The position numbers and the translations under genes are program-made. The notes under the pieces are model-generated. The model was not told the origin of the DNA. It did not search any database and saw nothing but the letters and a program-made list of their open reading frames with translations. From sequence record NC_010583.1: 64,000 nt of DNA. One strand, 5' to 3'. This stretch comes from Escherichia phage Eps7. Below are positions 29,159-33,548 of this stretch, one piece after another. The stretch's first letter is position 1. The number at the start of each line of letters is the position of its first letter.

Positions 29159-29527
29159 TTATATCGCCTGAGTAAATGTACGACTAATAACGTCGTTCTG
29201 TTGTTCACGCGTCAGTGCATTAAATCGAACAGCATAGCCAGAGACACGAATGGTCAACTGAGGGTATTTTTCAGGATGTTTCTGTGCATCCAAAAGCTGA
29301 TCACGACTTAACACATTGACATTTAGGTGCTGACCTCCCTCGACCTGAGGAATTACTTCAACATCTACGATGCGAAAGGCTTCAGGATCAAAGTGAGGTG
29401 TGATACCTTCTAGATCTTCAACTAGAACTTTTTGTTTAAGTTCACCATCTTTAGAGTATAATTGAATGATCTGATTGTCATGAACAAGGTTAATTACGCC
29501 GGATTTAAGGTTTTGGTACGCTTTCAT
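29159..29527 (-). CDS. hypothetical protein
   Basis: 122-aa ORF. Confidence 0.5.
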
Positions 29528-29710
29528 TAGATCTCCCTGATGTTAGAATTTGGCTCAGCTTTTTGTTAACCCAGAAGCAAGATAAAAACTGGGAGGCAGG
29601 CTGTTTATTAAGTGAATACCCGATAATCGCTCGTAGTCCGGCTTGTGGATTGATAGTCCCATTCAGTTTAATAAACACAGAGATCTGGCACAAAGGCCTG
29701 ATCTTATCTT

Positions 29711-29787
29711 TGGTAGTTAGTAGTGGATTTGAACCACTGTAGTCGCTCCGTATGAAGGAGGTGCATAACCTCTCTGCCAACTAACTA
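29711..29787 (-). tRNA. tRNA with anticodon CAT (Met or Ile-lysidine type)
   Basis: manual fold: acceptor TAGTTAG/CTAACTA, T-arm GGTTCAAATCC, anticodon loop TTCATAC, encoded CCA. Confidence 0.6.
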
Positions 29788-29883
29788 TTATGTTTTACTA
29801 GACTAAGTAAGTATTCTTTATACTCTTTAGACCAATTAGTCTTTTTTAAACTTTCCTGGACGCATAGTCTTACTTCCTAAATT

Positions 29884-29960
29884 TGGTACTCCGGGAGGGA
29901 TTTAAACCCCCGATCTCTCGGTTATCAGCCGAGTGCTTTAGATCGCTAAGCTACCGAAGC
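29884..29960 (-). tRNA. tRNA-Ile (GAT)
   Basis: manual fold: anticodon stem CTCGG/CCGAG, loop CTGATAA, T-loop TTTAAAT, encoded CCA. Confidence 0.6.
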
Positions 29961-29961
29961 A

Positions 29962-30165
29962 TTAACATTTAATTGCAGAACGTTTACCATTTCTAGGCGC
30001 ACCTGGAAGTCGTGCACGTTCTGCCATTCTTCGCTTAATCTTTGGGATATTTTCTAGTGTTTGTTCTTCAGGCTTAATACCTGAAACACTACACCACTGA
30101 TTACCATCCCATGCGGTAATGATCATAACACCATTACCCATAATCTTTTGTGAAGTAATTCTCAT
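29962..30165 (-). CDS. hypothetical protein
   Basis: 67-aa ORF. Confidence 0.4.
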   Translation of the reverse strand: MRITSQKIMGNGVMIITAWDGNQWCSVSGIKPEEQTLENIPKIKRRMAERARLPGAPRNGKRSAIKC

Positions 30166-30458
30166 TATAACAACTCGTCTAAGTAAGAGGTATACTGGTA
30201 TTTAGCTTCACCAGTTTTATCTACTTCGACTTCTGTTCTAGGTACTTTTCGTACCAGACCGTGAATCATCTTATATTGAATAGATTTAGATGGTTCGTGA
30301 TCTTTAGGAAAGACCTGCTTAACTGTAACTACTTTAAATCCCTCACGTGGTGTTAGTACAACAACTTGATCACCTTCTTTGATTTTCCAAGACTCAGGAA
30401 ATTCATAAGTGTAGCGTTGACCACCGGTAAGGAATATAACAGAAAGATAACGTTTCAT
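30165..30458 (-). CDS. hypothetical protein
   Basis: 97-aa ORF 32 nt downstream of promoter. Confidence 0.5.
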   Translation of the reverse strand: MKRYLSVIFLTGGQRYTYEFPESWKIKEGDQVVVLTPREGFKVVTVKQVFPKDHEPSKSIQYKMIHGLVRKVPRTEVEVDKTGEAKYQYTSYLDELL

Positions 30459-30489
30459 TTGGTTTTCCTCTCATTAATTTATATAAACA

Positions 30490-30518
30490 TTATATCAAGA
30501 AATAAGAGGAAAGGCAAA
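30490..30518 (-). promoter_or_regulatory. sigma70-type early promoter (-35 TTGCCT)
   Basis: ATTATA 30490-30495, AGGCAA 30513-30518, 17-bp spacer. Confidence 0.55.
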
Positions 30519-30533
30519 TGAATTTTTAAATTT

Positions 30534-30608
30534 GGTGCTCCCACCAGGAATCGAACCCGGTTCAGATGCTTACAAGGCAACTGCATCGCCAGCAATGCTT
30601 TAGGAGCA
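30534..30608 (-). tRNA. tRNA-Thr (TGT)
   Basis: manual fold: T-arm CCGGGTTCGATTCCTGG, anticodon loop CTTGTAA, encoded CCA. Confidence 0.6.
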
Positions 30609-30774
30609 ATAAACCCGTTATTTCAACGGGATTTCTTTTTCAAATACAGGAGACTTATCAGACATTACTGTCATAGCCAACTGCTGTAGAAATTCGAATG
30701 AGAGTTTTAAACGTTCTTCGCCCAACTCAACCTCAACGCGCTTCATTCGTTTATCTACCTTTATCTTTAGATTA

Positions 30775-30996
30775 TCAGCCATCTTCGGGTTCTCTTTGCT
30801 CAGCTATTGCTAGCCAGTCTGGTAAAAGAAACTTAGTACGAAATTCTTCATATGTTTCTTCCGGATGAAAGCTATAGCCTTGCTTTTCATCATTTAATAA
30901 AACCGAACCGTCTTCCTGCTCATAAGCTCGGTATGTTTCACCAATAATTAAAACTCGCCTATTAGGGTTTTTATTACGAAACTCAAAAACGTCCAT
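30775..30996 (-). CDS. hypothetical protein
   Basis: 73-aa ORF. Confidence 0.5.
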   Translation of the reverse strand: MDVFEFRNKNPNRRVLIIGETYRAYEQEDGSVLLNDEKQGYSFHPEETYEEFRTKFLLPDWLAIAEQREPEDG

Positions 30997-31011
30997 AACG
31001 TTTCCTTAAAT

Positions 31012-31086
31012 TGGTGCGGGATACGAGAGTCGAACTCGTGTCTACTGGTTGGAAGCCAGTTATTCTAGCCACTGAACTAATCACGC
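31012..31086 (-). tRNA. tRNA-Gly (TCC)
   Basis: manual fold: anticodon stem ACTGG/CCAGT, loop CTTCCAA, T-loop TTCGACT, CCA. Confidence 0.65.
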
Positions 31087-31092
31087 ATAAAT

Positions 31093-31168
31093 TGGCTGGA
31101 GAAGGAGGAATCGAACCTACCATTAACGGAGTCAAAGGCCGTTGTGCTAACCGTTACACTACTCTCCA
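31093..31168 (-). tRNA. tRNA-Gln (TTG)
   Basis: manual fold: U1-A72, discriminator G, anticodon loop CTTTGAC, T-loop TTCGATT, CCA. Confidence 0.6.
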
Positions 31169-31174
31169 AGTATT

Positions 31175-31250
31175 TGGCTGGGATGCCACGGATCGAACGT
31201 GGAACCTTCGGAGTCAGAGGCCGACGATCTGCCAATTGATCTACATCCCA
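31175..31250 (-). tRNA. tRNA-Gln (CTG)
   Basis: manual fold: U1-A72, discriminator G, anticodon loop CTCTGAC, D-stem GATC, CCA. Confidence 0.6.
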
Positions 31251-31258
31251 ATAATTTT

Positions 31259-31459
31259 TTATTCTTCAGGAACCGTGGCTATTGGATCTGGTTCTTCTAG
31301 ACGTTTACCATTATGATCGACACGAATAATGCCACAACCTTCACAGATTACAACAGCACCATAGCCTTCTTTAACTTCGGCTTCTGTAATCAGACCAGAT
31401 AAATCACCAGTATCTTTGCCCCACATATCAATAGAGCATTCTTTGCAGAAATCAGCCAT
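31259..31459 (-). CDS. zinc-ribbon-like small protein
   Basis: 66-aa ORF with CxxC...CxxC. Confidence 0.5.
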   Translation of the reverse strand: MADFCKECSIDMWGKDTGDLSGLITEAEVKEGYGAVVICEGCGIIRVDHNGKRLEEPDPIATVPEE

Positions 31460-31483
31460 ATTTTATTTCCTATTTAAGTTAAT

Positions 31484-31558
31484 TGGTGCATCCTCAGGGA
31501 ATCGAACCCCGATCGTAAAGTTCGTAGCTTTACATTCTTTCCGTTGAAATAAGGACGC
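31484..31558 (-). tRNA. tRNA-Arg (ACG)
   Basis: manual fold: anticodon stem TAAAG/CTTTA, loop CTACGAA, T-loop TTCGATT, CCA. Confidence 0.6.
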
Positions 31559-31564
31559 AATATT

Positions 31565-31641
31565 TGGGGTGGCTAGTGGAATTCGAATCCACATAGGCCT
31601 GATTCACAATCAGGATCATTAACCAATTATGATATAGCCAC
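31565..31641 (-). tRNA. tRNA-His (GTG)
   Basis: manual fold: anticodon stem CCTGA/TCAGG, loop TTGTGAA, T-loop TTCGAAT, CCA. Confidence 0.7.
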
Positions 31642-31960
31642 AATTGAAATCTCTAGTTATCCCTTTCGGAGGGGCTAAAGGGCGATACCCATTCTAAAGA
31701 CTTCAATTGTGGCGGCTCTCCGAAACTCATCACACTAACAACTAGTTGATTACTTCTGGATTCTCGCCCAGAAAATTCTCTAGAAAGGTGCACCGTTACT
31801 CTTTGAGCCATTAATGTATCAAGAAGCAGAAGGACTTGAACCTTCACGAGATAGACCATTTATCTCAGCCTCGTTTTCGGGTATCTTATGAGGAGTGGAT
31901 GTTCCCCTTACGCCCTTTAGGAAGCCCCGTCTACCGATTCCGGCATACTTCAAGAATTAT
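31642..31960 (-). other. unresolved tRNA-like / structured RNA region
   Basis: ORF-free; contains Leu-tRNA-like D-arm GGAATCGGTAGAC and a T-arm GAAGGTTCAAGTCCTTC without clean acceptor pairing or CCA. Confidence 0.3.
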
Positions 31961-32164
31961 TTAAAACTTGTAACCTTCGGGAACCTTATCCTTAACACCA
32001 ATATACTCAGCTTGGATGTAATAATCAGGTACATGATCTTTTGGCAGATTCTTGTTAGTATCATGAACCTCAGCTCTAGCTTCTTCTTCAGAATCAAAAC
32101 CACGATACCAGATTTCACCACCCCAGCCACGTTCACTTTCGGTATACTTAACAATGTGTTTCAT
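31961..32164 (-). CDS. hypothetical protein
   Basis: track ORF 31961..32215 trimmed to internal Met so it does not overlap tRNA. Confidence 0.4.
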   Translation of the reverse strand: MKHIVKYTESERGWGGEIWYRGFDSEEEARAEVHDTNKNLPKDHVPDYYIQAEYIGVKDKVPEGYKF

Positions 32165-32182
32165 AAGGTTTTCCTTATTAGT

Positions 32183-32272
32183 TGGAGGAAGGTAATGGAG
32201 TCGAACCATCACCATATCGCTACAGCGGGCAGGTTTTCAAGACCTGTTACATACCACTATGTCCTACCTTCC
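32183..32272 (-). tRNA. tRNA-Ser (TGA), long variable arm
   Basis: manual fold: acceptor GGAAGGT/ACCTTCC, anticodon stem CAGGT/ACCTG, loop CTTGAAA, CCA; 90 nt. Confidence 0.65.
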
Positions 32273-32279
32273 AGTTGTT

Positions 32280-32370
32280 TGGCGGAAGAAGAGAGATTCG
32301 AACTCTCAAGCCGTTTTACCAGTCAGCCACTTTCCAAGCGGTTTTCGTCACCTAATCGATTTGCTCTTCC
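32280..32370 (-). tRNA. tRNA, long-variable-arm class (anticodon unresolved, possibly Ser-GGA)
   Basis: perfect T-arm GAGAGTTCGAATCTCTC, acceptor GGAAGAG/TTCTTCC, CCA; 91 nt. Confidence 0.5.
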
Positions 32371-32544
32371 GTAGATCTCAGGATTAAATCATAAACTTCA
32401 TTAGCGGATACTGGAAGTATGAGATTATACATCTTTTGGTCATACCTCTGACCATACTCTATAAACACATACTCTTTAGTTAATGTATTAACAGCTAACC
32501 AGATATCAGTTATAGGAGTTTTCATCATGAGTTAATCCAATGTT

Positions 32545-32625
32545 TGGTAGGGATGGAGGGACTCGAACCCACACCCGAAGACTAGAATCTAAATCTAGCG
32601 CGTCTGCCAATTTCGCCACATCCCC
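32545..32625 (-). tRNA. tRNA-Leu (TAG)
   Basis: manual fold: anticodon stem CTAGA/TCTAG, loop TTTAGAT, extended variable region, CCA. Confidence 0.6.
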
Positions 32626-32632
32626 ATTTTAT

Positions 32633-32851
32633 TTAGTTAGAAATAAATAATAATCCCGCAACAATGGAACCTACGCCACTGAACACCATTATCAGCATAG
32701 CTTCTAAGCTGATAAAGCGGACAGTATATGGAGCGCCCCAAGAATAATCAGTAAAGAAAGTTTTCTTTTCTTTAGCTAAATCTTTAACAGTTCTAAAATA
32801 GATAGCTAGTGCTAAAGCTGCAAGAACTATAGAGGCTGCTAAGAATACCAT
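32633..32851 (-). CDS. small membrane protein
   Basis: 72-aa ORF with two hydrophobic segments. Confidence 0.45.
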   Translation of the reverse strand: MVFLAASIVLAALALAIYFRTVKDLAKEKKTFFTDYSWGAPYTVRFISLEAMLIMVFSGVGSIVAGLLFISN

Positions 32852-32870
32852 ATTATTTCCTTAATTTGTT

Positions 32871-32946
32871 TGGTGGAGTCACTCAGAATTGAACTGAGTT
32901 CCACTGCTTGCAAGGCAGTAAGTTTAACCAAATAACCTATGACCCC
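32871..32946 (-). tRNA. tRNA-Ala (TGC)
   Basis: manual fold: G3-U70 pair, anticodon stem ACTGC/GCAGT, loop CTTGCAA, CCA. Confidence 0.6.
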
Positions 32947-32952
32947 GAATTT

Positions 32953-33031
32953 TGGTGGAGAATAACGGAATCGAACCGTTCTGATGTCCTCGGTGCAAGC
33001 GAGGTGTCCACTCCATGCAGACCCATTCCCC
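32953..33031 (-). tRNA. tRNA with anticodon TGC (second Ala-like copy)
   Basis: manual fold: G3-U70, anticodon stem CCTCG/CGAGG, loop CTTGCAC, T-arm AACGGTTCGATTCCGTT, CCA. Confidence 0.5.
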
Positions 33032-33040
33032 AAAATTTAT

Positions 33041-33304
33041 TTATTCTCTATACATATCGAGAACAGTTGCTACAATCTGAGCTTCTAGCCTAGCAATATC
33101 TTTATTCACTATATCAGATTCTACTACTAAGTGATTATATATTGCTTCAGTTTTAGCAAGATCTACATCAGATAGTTTATTAAGACTATTATAATACTTA
33201 GCATTATTGCAACGTTTCTTCATATCGGAAACTCGTTTATGGAGTGTTCTTTGTTGATAACGTTGTGACATTAGTTTCTTAGCCATATCTTTCAGATCAA
33301 ACAT
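33041..33304 (-). CDS. hypothetical protein
   Basis: 87-aa ORF with AGGAAT RBS. Confidence 0.5.
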   Translation of the reverse strand: MFDLKDMAKKLMSQRYQQRTLHKRVSDMKKRCNNAKYYNSLNKLSDVDLAKTEAIYNHLVVESDIVNKDIARLEAQIVATVLDMYRE

Positions 33305-33548
33305 GGATATTCCTTCTAGTTTACTAAGGCTATTAGCTCGGTGTGCGTATTACCCTCAGACATTAGCCAGTAGAGGATAATCGCTCTTCACAAACCCGAT
33401 ACACTATTCAGTTGCCGCTGAATCTAGCGGACTAATCTAGAACTTCTCCCGAGTCGTAGGGATCGTGCTTTTTTGGCAGCCAGTCCTAGGTCGAGCTAAT
33501 ACCTTAGTGAACTTTGATGAGGATTTCTCCTCATCAATTTATATAAAT
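33305..33548 (-). ncRNA. candidate structured leader / small RNA
   Basis: 245-nt ORF-poor transcribed segment between promoter and next start codon; long-range complement TAAGGTATTAGCTCG vs CGAGCTAATAGCCTTA; local hairpins. Confidence 0.3.

What the first reader, a model, noticed from the sequence alone, without database searches (positions are those of the whole stretch)
31642..31960. Unresolved tRNA-like / structured element between tRNA-His and the next ORF
This ORF-free 320 bp contains a D-arm-like sequence (GCCGGAATCGGTAGACGGGG, very like bacterial tRNA-Leu D-arms) and a good T-arm (GAAGGTTCAAGTCCTTC), but they are about 100 nt apart and no CCA end is present. It may be a tRNA with an insertion or intron, a degenerate tRNA, or a stable small RNA.
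Basis: seen in the sequence. Interest (0 to 1): 0.5.

Follow-up and report, generated by a model that had tools for sequence, protein, structure and literature searches.

The report
T5-type tRNA-like stable RNA genes
The 320-base gap holds three small non-coding RNA genes already annotated in phage T5 (a tRNA look-alike called RNA1, then RNA I and an RNA III-type hairpin); their existence is not new, but nobody knows what they do.

Summary
On the minus strand, 31955-31819 folds into a tRNA-like cloverleaf. It has a leucine-tRNA-type D arm, a canonical T arm and a long variable arm. A 48-nt structured insert replaces the anticodon loop. The terminal helix is sealed, with two adjacent U·U mismatches and no CCA. 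Twelve of 37 base pairs show compensatory changes across T5-like phages.

It is not unresolved. It is the orthologue of rna1 ("tRNA-like stable RNA with unknown functions") annotated in T5 (AY543070) and Salmonella phage 5 (AJ604531). It occurs in 491 phage records.

The rest of the interval holds two more genes:
- RNA I (31809-31710), a rod-like RNA ending in an encoded GCCA.
- A 64-68-nt hairpin (31709-31642) in the hypervariable RNA III slot, abutting tRNA-His.

It is not a decodable tRNA, an intron-containing tRNA, a tmRNA or a coding region. Function is unknown. A natural variant lacks RNA1, and a viable T5 deletion mutant appears to lack all three RNAs. My best guess, by inference only, is a non-decoding tRNA mimic or scaffold matured by host tRNA-processing enzymes, perhaps a decoy for tRNA-directed host factors.

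Verdict: already known, modest interest. A separate unannotated pseudoknotted tRNA-like family in other phages was noticed in passing.

The parts
31810..31954 (-). RNA1 (rna1) orthologue: tRNA-like stable RNA, 145 nt by homology with the annotated T5 and phage 5 genes. The helix-closed core is 31955-31819.
   Evidence: 81-89% identical over its full length to annotated rna1 of phage 5 and T5. Model R1 scores 168 bits. The structure is supported by covariation.
31819..31955 (-). Terminal (acceptor-like) helix of RNA1. The strands are 31955-31946 and 31828-31819: UC-UU-GAAGUA / UGCUUC-UU-GA. That is 6 bp, then two adjacent U·U mismatches, then 2 bp. No CCA follows.
   Evidence: Four pairs change on both sides (GAAGUA/UGCUUC versus GGAAUA/UGUUCC). 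The Klebsiella-phage copy has an 11-bp helix with one G·G mismatch (read from the L030 row).
31927..31943 (-). D arm of RNA1: CCG-GAAUCGGUAGA-CGG, of the class II tRNA-Leu type, preceded by U8 and G9. A14, G18, G19 and A21 are present.
   Evidence: Read from the sequence. It is invariant in T5-like phages, so it has no covariation support. The best-scoring ordinary tRNA for model R1 in the window is tRNA-Leu(tag), 34 bits.
31868..31925 (-). Extended anticodon arm of RNA1. A 5-bp stem (31925-31921 with 31872-31868) encloses a 48-nt insert (31920-31873).
   Evidence: Pairs at columns 32:89 and 35:86 change on both sides: GCUUC/GAGGC, GCUGC/GCGGC, ACUGC/GCGGU.
31889..31908 (-). Apical hairpin of the insert. 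Its 8-nt loop ACAUCCAC (31902-31895) is invariant in all but one sequence. It is flanked by a 3-bp helix (31915-31913 with 31881-31879).
   Evidence: Four of 6 stem pairs change on both sides. The flanking helix switches between A-U and G-C. The loop is identical in 19 of 20 sequences.
31847..31867 (-). Long variable arm of RNA1: a 7-bp stem with the conserved loop AAUGGUC.
   Evidence: A-U changes to U-A at column pair 94:106, and U·G changes to U-A at 90:110.
31829..31845 (-). T arm of RNA1: GAAGG-UUCAAGU-CCUUC. U54, U55, C56, A58 and the G53-C61 pair are present.
   Evidence: Read from the sequence. The stem is invariant and the loop varies only at non-critical positions.
31710..31809 (-). 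RNA I (rnaI) allele, 100 nt. The stem GGCUC.../...GAGCC is followed by G and an encoded CCA. The RNA is rod-like. Its ends match T5 RNA I, but its core is replaced.
   Evidence: Annotated rnaI in AJ604531 and AY543070. The 5' 20 nt and 3' 27 nt are shared with the T5 type, and the middle is non-homologous. Both alleles fold alike. U-A changes to C-G in the terminal stem of the Klebsiella-phage copy.
31642..31709 (-). Hairpin in the RNA III slot (homology-based RNA III limits 31705-31643). It links the CCA of RNA I to the 5' end of tRNA-His. It is 64-68 nt here, against 106 nt in T5.
   Evidence: MFE -23.5 kcal/mol, z = -3.8. Four non-homologous versions (28 to about 130 nt) occupy this slot in relatives. 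All are closed by the same AAUUGAR/YUCAAUU stem, with compensatory changes.
31565..31641 (-). tRNA-His(gtg), the downstream neighbour. It sets the 3' boundary of the RNA III-slot hairpin.
   Evidence: ARAGORN, and Rfam tRNA at 59.9 bits.

Best explanation
The interval is the T5-type 'stable RNA' gene cluster. Three non-coding RNAs are transcribed on the minus strand as part of the polycistronic tRNA/ORF transcript and are cut out of it.

(1) RNA1 is a derivative of a class II, leucine-type tRNA.
- It keeps the tRNA elbow (D arm and T arm with the tertiary-contact nucleotides), a long variable arm and a 5-bp anticodon stem.
- Its anticodon loop is replaced by a conserved 48-nt helical extension. 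This ends in an 8-nt loop that is invariant in all but one sequence.
- Its acceptor end is a sealed 10-bp helix with two adjacent U·U mismatches and no CCA.
- It therefore cannot decode and, as encoded, cannot be charged. It is a tRNA mimic, or a tRNA scaffold carrying a module.

(2) RNA I is a rod-like RNA whose 5-bp terminal stem is followed by G-CCA. That is a tRNA-like 3' end, suited to RNase P and exonuclease maturation.

(3) The RNA III slot is a hairpin spacer. Its closing stem brings the CCA of RNA I next to the 5' end of tRNA-His. Its distal part is freely exchanged between phages.

Shown here: identity, structure, conservation and non-coding nature.

Inferred: maturation by host tRNA enzymes (RNase P at the 5' ends of RNA I and tRNA-His, then 3' trimming), and function. 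As the most likely function of RNA1, I suggest that it occupies a host factor that recognises the tRNA body or the class II variable arm. That factor could be a defence nuclease or a tRNA-processing or modification enzyme, with RNA1 acting as decoy or competitor rather than in translation. I put that part at about 0.2-0.3. The overall confidence of 0.75 refers to identity, structure and the non-decoding tRNA-mimic nature.
For: Homology and synteny with annotated genes:
- AJ604531 annotates RNA1 ('tRNA-like RNA with unknown functions'), RNA I and RNA III between ORF trn 2.14 and tRNA-His.
- AY543070 annotates rna1 at 30501-30644 ('tRNA-like stable RNA with unknown functions'), plus rnaI and rnaIII.

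Structure: 37 pairs, 98.6% of cells paired, 12 pairs changed on both sides, and none of 500 shuffles reaching the observed value on four of five measures. RNAalifold agrees.

tRNA-Leu likeness: among ordinary tRNAs, tRNA-Leu scores best with model R1.

CCA: RNA1 has none, while all 29 tRNAs and RNA I encode it.

Transcription: no promoter-like or terminator-like excess in 31200-33100. In phage 5 the cluster lies between annotated promoters P13b and P11.

RNA I: two alleles share a shape.

RNA III slot: the conserved closing stem persists across non-homologous fillings.

Precedent for the functional guess: retron-Eco7 and Septu cleave the variable loop of class II tRNA-Tyr, T5 tRNA-Tyr resists this cleavage, and phage tRNA may act 'as a decoy or supplement' (PMC13096335). 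T5 tRNA-Lys neutralises PARIS (PMC11464382).
Against: - There is no experimental function, and none could be found in the searchable literature.
- The RNAs look dispensable. The viable T5 mutant T5-123 has a deletion (29191-32442) that appears to cover the locus (PMC11464382; coordinates; which T5 reference the paper numbers from was not checked). A natural relative (L023) lacks RNA1 and its upstream ORF.
- The D stem and T stem never vary in T5-like phages, so these two helices rest on tRNA analogy only.
- Single-sequence folding energy of RNA1 is not exceptional (z = -0.8).
- The 5' and 3' ends of the mature RNAs come from database annotation. They were not verified here.
- Nothing ties RNA1 to any particular defence system.
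Confidence: 0.75

Rival explanations
1. These are relics or by-products. RNA1 is a decayed tRNA gene, and RNA I and RNA III are merely stable spacer fragments left by tRNA processing. None has a function of its own. At most they serve as cleavage or punctuation signals.
For: The RNAs look dispensable, from the T5-123 deletion and the natural loss in L023. The RNA III slot is filled with unrelated sequences of 28 to about 130 nt, and the RNA I core is swapped between alleles. That pattern is what one expects of weakly constrained spacers. Ordinary tRNAs sit immediately downstream.
Against: RNA1 is retained full-length in 491 records. Compensatory changes occur in the insert helices, not only in the tRNA-like part. 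The 8-nt and 7-nt loops are invariant in all but one sequence. A decaying pseudogene would not preserve these. RNA I keeps its encoded CCA and terminal stem through a compensatory change.
Confidence: 0.15
2. RNA1 is a base-pairing regulatory RNA. The tRNA-like body only supplies processing and stability. The conserved loops (ACAUCCAC, AAUGGUC) pair with a host or phage RNA target.
For: The loops are invariant in all but one sequence while the stems beneath them covary. The architecture matches the engineered 'tRNA scaffold' design, in which a cargo RNA replaces the anticodon loop (from my own knowledge, not checked here).
Against: No target was identified. The loops give only 7-8 nt of complementarity, which is expected by chance in any genome. 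The two loops can pair with each other over only 3 bp (read from the sequence).
Confidence: 0.12
3. RNA1 is a real tRNA gene interrupted by an intron-like insert. The insert is removed, and CCA is added, to give a functional tRNA-Leu-like adaptor.
For: It has a leucine-type D arm, a canonical T arm, a long variable arm and a 5-bp anticodon stem. Some phage tRNAs lacking encoded CCA are known to be completed by the host enzyme (from my own knowledge of T4).
Against: - The insert is 48 nt, and no intron or ribozyme family scores in the interval even at E<=10.
- The residues flanking the insert differ between phages (CUAAA...GAAAAC, CUAAA...CAUAAA, CGAAU...UAAAA) and give no conserved 7-nt loop or U33.
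- Position 73 would be U. E. coli LeuRS needs A73 (from my own knowledge).
- The terminal helix is extended past position 1:72.
- The window already has tRNA-Leu(tag) and tRNA-Leu(taa).
- The insert's own helices and loop are conserved, which fits a functional module.
Confidence: 0.03
4. The region encodes small proteins, as several GenBank records annotate ('hypothetical protein' over the match).
For: The minus strand carries mechanical ORFs of 68 aa (31653-31859) and 44 aa (31819-31953). Some records annotate CDS here.
Against: The 68-aa ORF is truncated to 38 aa in phage 5. It starts inside the variable-arm loop of RNA1 and runs across three RNA genes, whose lengths differ by 7 nt (RNA I) and by tens of nt (RNA III) between phages. 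The 44-aa frame persists in phage 5, but it lies entirely inside RNA1. The substitution pattern there is compensatory for helices.
Confidence: 0.01

Closest known systems
Phage T5 / BF23 / Salmonella phage 5 stable RNAs rna1, rnaI, rnaIII (GenBank AY543070, AJ604531)
   Same: Same position (after a small ORF downstream of tRNA-Ser, and immediately upstream of tRNA-His). Same order and same strand. RNA1 is 81-89% identical over its full length and has the same covarying structure. RNA I has the same ends, including the GCCA tail.
   Different: The window carries the Epseptimavirus-type RNA I allele: 100 nt, with a non-homologous core. In place of the 106-nt T5 RNA III it has a 64-nt hairpin that shares only the closing stem.
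Phage T4 species 1 RNA (rnaC) and species 2 RNA (rnaD)
   Same: Both are small stable RNAs of unknown function encoded in a phage tRNA cluster (PMC3014915, PMC9697503). rnaC has a canonical T arm, a long variable-type hairpin, a long arm in place of the anticodon arm, an acceptor-like helix with two adjacent U·U mismatches, and no CCA. rnaD ends in an encoded ACCA, as RNA I ends in GCCA.
   Different: No detectable sequence homology: model R1 scores rnaC at 10 bits, on the T arm only. The rnaC fold shows no D arm. The gene order is reversed (rnaD then rnaC). The U·U pairs sit in the middle of the helix, not at its 1:72 end.
Canonical class II tRNA-Leu
   Same: D arm (3-bp stem, loop GAAUCGGUAGA), U8, G18 and G19, T loop UUCAAGU, a long variable arm and a 5-bp anticodon stem. 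tRNA-Leu is the best-scoring ordinary tRNA for the RNA1 model.
   Different: No 7-nt anticodon loop or anticodon. No CCA. U rather than A at position 73. The terminal helix has 10 positions, with mismatches at 1:72 and -1:73. ARAGORN does not call it, and the Rfam tRNA model gives no hit even at E<=10.
Unannotated ~160-nt pseudoknotted tRNA-like RNAs of other phages
   Same: Nearly the same D-arm 21-mer (UGCCGGAAYYGGUAKACGGGR). Same order of helices: long sealed terminal helix without CCA, D arm, short anticodon-type stem, internal hairpin, variable-arm hairpin, T arm. They lie inside or near tRNA arrays.
   Different: Those RNAs have a covarying pseudoknot between the insert and a 17-nt variable-arm loop, plus conserved insert motifs that RNA1 lacks. 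A model of that family scores RNA1 at 39-47 bits, no better than a true tRNA-Leu at 47.5 bits.
tmRNA and bacterial Y RNA-like YrlA (other tRNA mimics)
   Same: Non-decoding RNAs that imitate part of the tRNA shape.
   Different: tmRNA: ARAGORN finds none, there is no tag reading frame, no G3·U70 and no CCA. YrlA: its ends lie on the anticodon side and it carries a Ro-binding stem (from my own knowledge; see 10.1101/312249, listed). RNA1 has its ends at the acceptor side. Rfam gives no hit.

Membership tests
T5-type rna1 (tRNA-like stable RNA) | Full-length sequence homology to the annotated gene | tested here: met
   88.7% identity to phage 5 RNA1 over 141 nt and 81.4% to T5 over 145 nt. AY543070 lists rna1 under the BLAST match.
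T5-type rna1 (tRNA-like stable RNA) | Synteny: small ORF, then rna1, rnaI, rnaIII and tRNA-His, all on one strand | tested here: met
   Window order is ORF 31961-32215, RNA1, RNA I, hairpin, tRNA-His 31565-31641. The annotated order is the same.
T5-type rna1 (tRNA-like stable RNA) | Shared secondary structure | tested here: met
   One structure fits 20 distinct sequences, with 98.6% of cells paired and 12 pairs changed on both sides. Model R1 scores the window copy at 168 bits.
T5-type rna1 (tRNA-like stable RNA) | Accumulates as a discrete stable RNA in infected cells | not testable with these tools
   Stated only in the notes of the database records. No RNA data are available here.
T5-type rnaI | Terminal stem GGCUC/GAGCC followed by R-CCA, directly downstream of rna1 | tested here: met
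   Window 31809-31710. The ends are identical to the T5 type. A compensatory U-A to C-G change occurs in L030.
T5-type rnaI | Homology of the central approximately 60 nt | tested here: not met
   Only query positions 79-105 align with T5 and phage 5. The window has a different core allele, shared with L002, L004, L005, L006, L016 and L030.
T5-type rnaIII | Sequence homology to the 106-nt RNA III | tested here: not met
   No BLAST match of phage 5 RNA III to the window-type loci L002 and L004. Only the closing stem CAAUUGAA/UUCAAUUG is shared.
Canonical tRNA (Rfam RF00005 / ARAGORN) | Detection by tRNA models | tested here: not met
   No ARAGORN call and no RF00005 hit in 31642-31960, even at E<=10.
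Canonical tRNA (Rfam RF00005 / ARAGORN) | Seven-nt anticodon loop with U33 and an anticodon | tested here: not met
   The 5-bp stem encloses 48 nt. The flanking residues are not conserved as a loop.
Canonical tRNA (Rfam RF00005 / ARAGORN) | Seven-bp acceptor stem with a single-stranded N73-CCA | tested here: not met
   The helix continues past 1:72 (U·U, U·U, C-G, U-A) and no CCA follows. All 29 tRNAs of the window encode CCA.
Canonical tRNA (Rfam RF00005 / ARAGORN) | D arm and T arm with elbow nucleotides (U8, A14, G18, G19, U54, U55, C56, A58, G53-C61) | tested here: met
   All are present in the sequence at 31945-31927 and 31845-31829. The stems are invariant, so covariation neither supports nor contradicts them.
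tRNA interrupted by a group I or other self-splicing intron | An intron or ribozyme core in the anticodon loop | tested here: not met
   The insert is only 48 nt, and no intron or ribozyme family scores at E<=10.
tmRNA | tRNA-Ala-like ends with G3·U70 and CCA, plus a tag reading frame | tested here: not met
   ARAGORN reports no tmRNA. The acceptor helix is GAAGUA/UGCUUC with no G3·U70 and no CCA.
T4 species 1 RNA (rnaC) | Sequence or model-detectable homology | tested here: not met
   Model R1 with filters off scores 10.2 bits, on the rnaC T-arm region only. The resemblance is architectural only.
~160-nt pseudoknotted phage tRNA-like family (A5) | Pseudoknot between the segment 3' of the internal hairpin and the variable-arm loop | tested here: not met
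   The RNA1 variable loop (AAUGGUC) has at most 3 complementary bases in the insert. Those bases are already used by a covarying helix.
~160-nt pseudoknotted phage tRNA-like family (A5) | Family model score above that of ordinary tRNAs | tested here: inconclusive
   Model R2 scores RNA1 copies at 38-47 bits. A true tRNA-Leu scores 47.5 and the window's tRNA-Leu genes 34-35.

The most novel reading that the evidence does not exclude
RNA1 may belong to a broad, unrecognised class of phage-encoded class II tRNA mimics. The other candidates are T4 species 1 RNA and the unannotated pseudoknotted RNAs of about 160 nt in cyanophage S-CRM01, Pseudomonas phage GP100 and large uncultured phages. The shared features are a sealed acceptor helix, no CCA, a preserved elbow and variable arm, and a rebuilt anticodon arm. 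The proposed role is to titrate or inhibit host tRNA-directed immunity or tRNA-processing enzymes. One example would be the nucleases that cut the variable arm of class II tRNAs, as retron-Eco7/PtuAB and Septu do.
Probability: 0.15. Interest if true: 0.75.

Novelty: already known. Interest (0 to 1): 0.35.

Why it matters
As a gene, this is ordinary. It re-finds RNAs that have been annotated in the T5 reference genome for about two decades.

It matters in three ways.

First, annotation. Most modern T5-like genome records leave these about 320 bp blank or call spurious 'hypothetical proteins' over them. A covariance model would fix that.

Second, an old open question. The function of the T5 stable RNAs, and of the architecturally similar T4 RNAC and RNAD, remains unknown. 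That question is now testable, because host defences aimed at tRNAs, including the variable arm of class II tRNAs, have been identified. T5 is a main model for viral tRNA counter-defence.

Third, the covariation-supported structure produced here tells an experimenter which loops and helices to mutate. The key features are the sealed acceptor helix, the intact elbow, the long variable arm and the near-invariant 8-nt apical loop.

Tried and rejected
- Rfam 15, at gathering scores and at E<=10, gave no family in the interval. ARAGORN gave no tRNA or tmRNA.
- An intron-containing tRNA, a group I intron, a small self-cleaving ribozyme, tmRNA and YrlA were each considered and rejected. The reasons are in the membership table.
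- Single-sequence folding was uninformative for RNA1 and RNA I (z = -0.8 each). Only comparative analysis resolved the structures.
- The loop of the RNA III-slot hairpin in the window contains CCUCC, which resembles the ribosome's anti-Shine-Dalgarno sequence. The closest relatives have CCUAC, so this idea was dropped.
- A kissing interaction between the two conserved RNA1 loops offers only 3 bp. Both loops are invariant, so it cannot be tested.
- Complementarity of ACAUCCAC to host rRNA or tRNA was considered. I did not pursue it, because 7-8-nt matches are expected by chance.
- Membership of RNA1 in the pseudoknotted ~160-nt family was not demonstrated. Model R2 scores it no better than a real tRNA-Leu.
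- A wider pattern scan for that family gave mostly chance hits. Only three of them, one of which was S-CRM01 itself, were confirmed by the model.
- A scan anchored on the RNA1 loop plus a T loop returned many unrelated tRNAs. Model R1 found RNA1 only in T5-like phages, and none in the distant T5 relatives L031-L042.
- The literature searches on function found no study of these RNAs. One of eight searches failed on a term that was too short.
- The protein search tools were not used, because the region is non-coding.
Full report
**What the window is.** The window carries 29 tRNA genes on the minus strand between 29.7 and 42.7 kb. The interval is nearly identical to Salmonella and Escherichia T5-like phages of the family Demerecviridae; for example it is 99.1% identical to Salmonella phage SLAM_phiST45. 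The finding, 31642-31960, is the gap between tRNA-His (31565-31641) and the stop codon of a small ORF (31961-32215).

**Checking the observation.** On the minus strand the quoted D-arm-like string lies at 31944-31925 and the T-arm string at 31845-31829. No CCA follows. Every one of the 29 tRNAs in the window does encode CCA. ARAGORN, the Rfam tRNA model and all other Rfam families give nothing here, even at E<=10.

**What it is.** A BLAST search of the interval against phage records found 503 records. One of them, AJ604531 ('Bacteriophage 5 tRNA gene region'), annotates three misc_RNA genes at the homologous place:
- RNA1, 145 nt, 'tRNA-like RNA with unknown functions'
- RNA I, 107 nt, 'stable RNA'
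- RNA III, 106 nt, 'stable RNA', followed directly by tRNA-His

The T5 reference record AY543070 annotates the same three genes: rna1 at 30501-30644 ('tRNA-like stable RNA with unknown functions'), rnaI and rnaIII. The interval is therefore three genes, not one element:
- RNA1, 31954-31810
- RNA I, 31809-31710
- a hairpin in the RNA III slot, 31709-31642

**Structure of RNA1.** I aligned 20 distinct RNA1 sequences from T5-like phages (A1) and tested a structure read from three of them. All seven helices hold:
- 98.6% of cells are paired.
- 12 of 37 pairs change on both sides.
- None of 500 column shuffles reached the observed value on four of the five measures. The count of further pair types was not above the shuffles.
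- Sliding the partners by 1-3 columns drops pairing to 38-51%.

RNAalifold predicts the same helices on its own. The exception is the D arm, for which it prefers a local hairpin that covariation cannot distinguish.

The molecule is a class II tRNA cloverleaf with two alterations.

First, the 5-bp anticodon stem is GCUUC/GAGGC. It becomes GCUGC/GCGGC in phage 5 and ACUGC/GCGGU in T5. This stem does not close a 7-nt loop. Instead it encloses 48 nt that form:
- an internal loop;
- a 3-bp helix (A-U switching to G-C);
- a second internal loop;
- a 5-6-bp hairpin whose stem changes freely (GGGGA/UCCUC, CUAGGA/UCCUAG, GCAGA/UCUGC and others).

The 8-nt loop of that hairpin, ACAUCCAC, is the same in 19 of 20 sequences.

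Second, the acceptor end is a sealed helix: six pairs, two U·U mismatches exactly at positions 1:72 and -1:73, then C-G and U-A. There is no CCA. The Klebsiella-phage copy has an 11-bp helix with one G·G mismatch (read from the L030 row).

The remaining parts are standard. The nucleotides that build the tRNA elbow are all present: U8, A14, G18, G19, U54, U55, C56, A58 and G53-C61. The 7-bp variable arm has a conserved loop, AAUGGUC.

Among ordinary tRNAs, the RNA1 model scores tRNA-Leu best: 34 bits for the window's tRNA-Leu(tag), 34 bits for T4 tRNA-Leu and 35 bits for a metagenomic tRNA-Leu. RNA1 copies themselves score 134-170 bits. RNA1 is thus a leucine-type tRNA derivative that cannot decode and, as encoded, cannot be charged.

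**RNA I and the RNA III slot.** RNA I begins GGCUC and ends GAGCC-G-CCA. That is a 5-bp terminal stem with an encoded tRNA-like 3' end. It exists as two alleles with the same ends and unrelated cores: 107 nt in T5 and phage 5, and 100 nt in the window and other Epseptimavirus-like and Klebsiella phages. Both alleles fold into the same rod: terminal stem, a 3-bp AAC/GUU helix, then a long irregular hairpin. The terminal stem shows a compensatory U-A to C-G change in the Klebsiella-phage copy.

The segment between the CCA of RNA I and tRNA-His is hypervariable. It is about 106 nt in T5, 64 nt in the window, 28 nt in L016 and about 130 nt in L006, and these versions share no sequence similarity. 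All are closed by the same stem, AAUUGAR/YUCAAUU, with compensatory changes. The window's version folds at -23.5 kcal/mol with z = -3.8. Its distal part looks unconstrained. The constant feature is the stem that brings the 3' end of RNA I next to the 5' end of tRNA-His.

**Not coding.** The 68-aa ORF starts in the variable-arm loop of RNA1 and runs across all three genes. It is cut to 38 aa in phage 5. It cannot survive the 7-nt length difference in RNA I or the tens-of-nt differences in RNA III. The 44-aa frame persists in phage 5, but it lies entirely inside the covarying RNA1 structure. Several GenBank records nevertheless annotate 'hypothetical protein' here.

**Expression and biogenesis (inferred).** The simple consensus scans find no excess of promoter-like or terminator-like sites in 31200-33100. 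In phage 5 the whole stretch lies between annotated promoters P13b and P11. The RNAs are therefore most likely cut from the polycistronic tRNA/ORF transcript. RNase P would act at the 5' ends of RNA I and tRNA-His, with endonucleolytic and exonucleolytic trimming elsewhere. I could not test this.

**Distribution and dispensability.** RNA1 is present at >=80% coverage in 491 phage records, from Salmonella, Escherichia, Klebsiella and other hosts. Model R1 finds none in more distant T5 relatives (L031-L042). In Klebsiella phages, RNA1 sits elsewhere in the tRNA region, away from RNA I, so the genes are independent modules. One relative (L023) lacks RNA1 and its upstream ORF; there tRNA-Ser is followed directly by RNA I. 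The viable T5 mutant T5-123 carries a deletion of 29191-32442. That range appears to cover all three genes at 30284-30644, although I did not check which T5 reference the paper numbers from (PMC11464382). The RNAs are conserved but not essential in the laboratory.

**Function.** No function is on record. The database notes say 'unknown functions', and my literature searches found no study of these RNAs.

The closest analogue is the phage T4 pair. rnaC (species 1) has a T arm, a long variable-type hairpin, a long arm in place of the anticodon arm, an acceptor-like helix with two adjacent U·U mismatches, and no CCA. rnaD (species 2) ends in an encoded ACCA. Their roles are also unknown (PMC3014915, PMC9697503). 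No sequence homology to RNA1 is detectable.

My preferred reading is that RNA1 is a non-decoding tRNA mimic, or a tRNA scaffold that presents a conserved module. The intact elbow and class II variable arm, the sealed 3' end, and conserved loops on covarying stems all point to recognition by something that binds the tRNA body. Retron-Eco7 and Septu cleave the variable loop of class II tRNA-Tyr, and T5's own tRNA-Tyr resists that cleavage. PARIS is neutralised by T5 tRNA-Lys (PMC13096335, PMC11464382). A decoy or competitor role is therefore plausible, but it is inference only, at about 0.2-0.3.

The rivals are scored separately: relic or by-product, base-pairing regulator, spliced functional tRNA, and small proteins.

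**A lead outside the finding.** I scanned viral contigs for the RNA1 D-arm 21-mer. The scan turned up RNAs of about 160 nt in unrelated, mostly large phages. BLAST with one of them found further copies in Synechococcus phage S-CRM01 and Pseudomonas phage GP100. None is annotated, none is called by ARAGORN, and none matches Rfam 15. They share:
- a long sealed terminal helix without CCA;
- the leucine-type D arm, with a compensatory CCG/CGG to CCC/GGG change;
- a short anticodon-type stem;
- a covarying hairpin with a conserved loop;
- a variable-arm hairpin whose 17-nt loop forms a covarying pseudoknot with the insert;
- a T arm.

Across 40 pairs, 93.9% of cells are paired, 31 pairs change on both sides, and none of 500 shuffles reached the observed values. 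A model of this family scores RNA1 at 38-47 bits. That is no better than a true tRNA-Leu with the same D arm, at 47.5 bits. Common ancestry beyond a leucine-tRNA origin is therefore not shown. The plan, however, is strikingly parallel.

**Verdict.** The feature is real, the structure is well supported, and the gene is already known and annotated in T5. It is a useful correction for annotation and a well-defined target for experiments, but not a new kind of element.

Noticed in passing
L129 878-1044 (+); L117 13875-14059 (+); L136 about 1486-1645 (S-CRM01, NC_015569 about 135445-135600); L137 about 990-1150 (GP100, LT986460); also L126, L128, L130, L132-L135, L144, L150: An unannotated family of tRNA-like RNAs of about 160 nt in unrelated phages, often inside tRNA arrays. 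Each has a sealed terminal helix without CCA and a tRNA-Leu-type D arm. A structured insert forms a covarying pseudoknot with a 17-nt variable-arm loop. Of 40 pairs, 31 change on both sides. Neither Rfam 15 nor ARAGORN detects them.
   Followed up: partly
window 32280-32370 (-): A tRNA-Ser(GGA)-like gene, 94.5% identical to the annotated tRNA-Ser2 of phage 5. ARAGORN misses it and it falls below Rfam thresholds (tRNA-Sec model 22.5 bits). The homologue is flagged as a pseudogene in AY587007. AY543070 notes that it does not work as a suppressor when its anticodon is changed.
   Followed up: partly
window 33388-33501 (-): A partial homologue (95.6% over 113 of 172 nt) of 'RNA 2H', another stable RNA of unknown function annotated in phage 5.
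   Followed up: no
L125 2409-2547 (-) and 2553-2672 (-) (phage T4 rnaC, rnaD): T4 species 1 RNA folds (z = -4.6) into an acceptor-like helix with two adjacent U·U mismatches, a long arm, a long variable-type hairpin and a canonical T arm, without CCA. T4 species 2 ends in an encoded ACCA. This parallels the T5 pair of RNA1 and RNA I, with no detectable sequence homology.
   Followed up: partly
L098 4115-4228 (+): Another tRNA-like RNA that ARAGORN does not call, in a metagenomic phage tRNA array. It has a 7-bp acceptor stem without CCA, an anticodon stem extended by a 6-bp hairpin, and a consensus-like promoter (TTGACA-17-TATAAT) just upstream.
   Followed up: no
L117 11234-11702 (+): A GOLLD RNA (Rfam RF02032, 168.5 bits) on the same uncultured-phage contig that carries one of the pseudoknotted tRNA-like RNAs.
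   Followed up: no
window 31641-31642 (-): The tRNA-His gene has U, not G, at position -1, opposite C73. The T5 and phage 5 records annotate the tRNA as 78 nt, including that U. How the -1 residue that HisRS normally needs is supplied is not clear from the sequence.
   Followed up: no
L023 about 1780-1880; L006 1961-2082: Natural rearrangements of the cluster. L023 lacks RNA1 and the upstream ORF, so tRNA-Ser is followed directly by RNA I. L006 has an extra 122 nt between RNA1 and RNA I and a different RNA III-slot filling of about 130 nt.
   Followed up: partly
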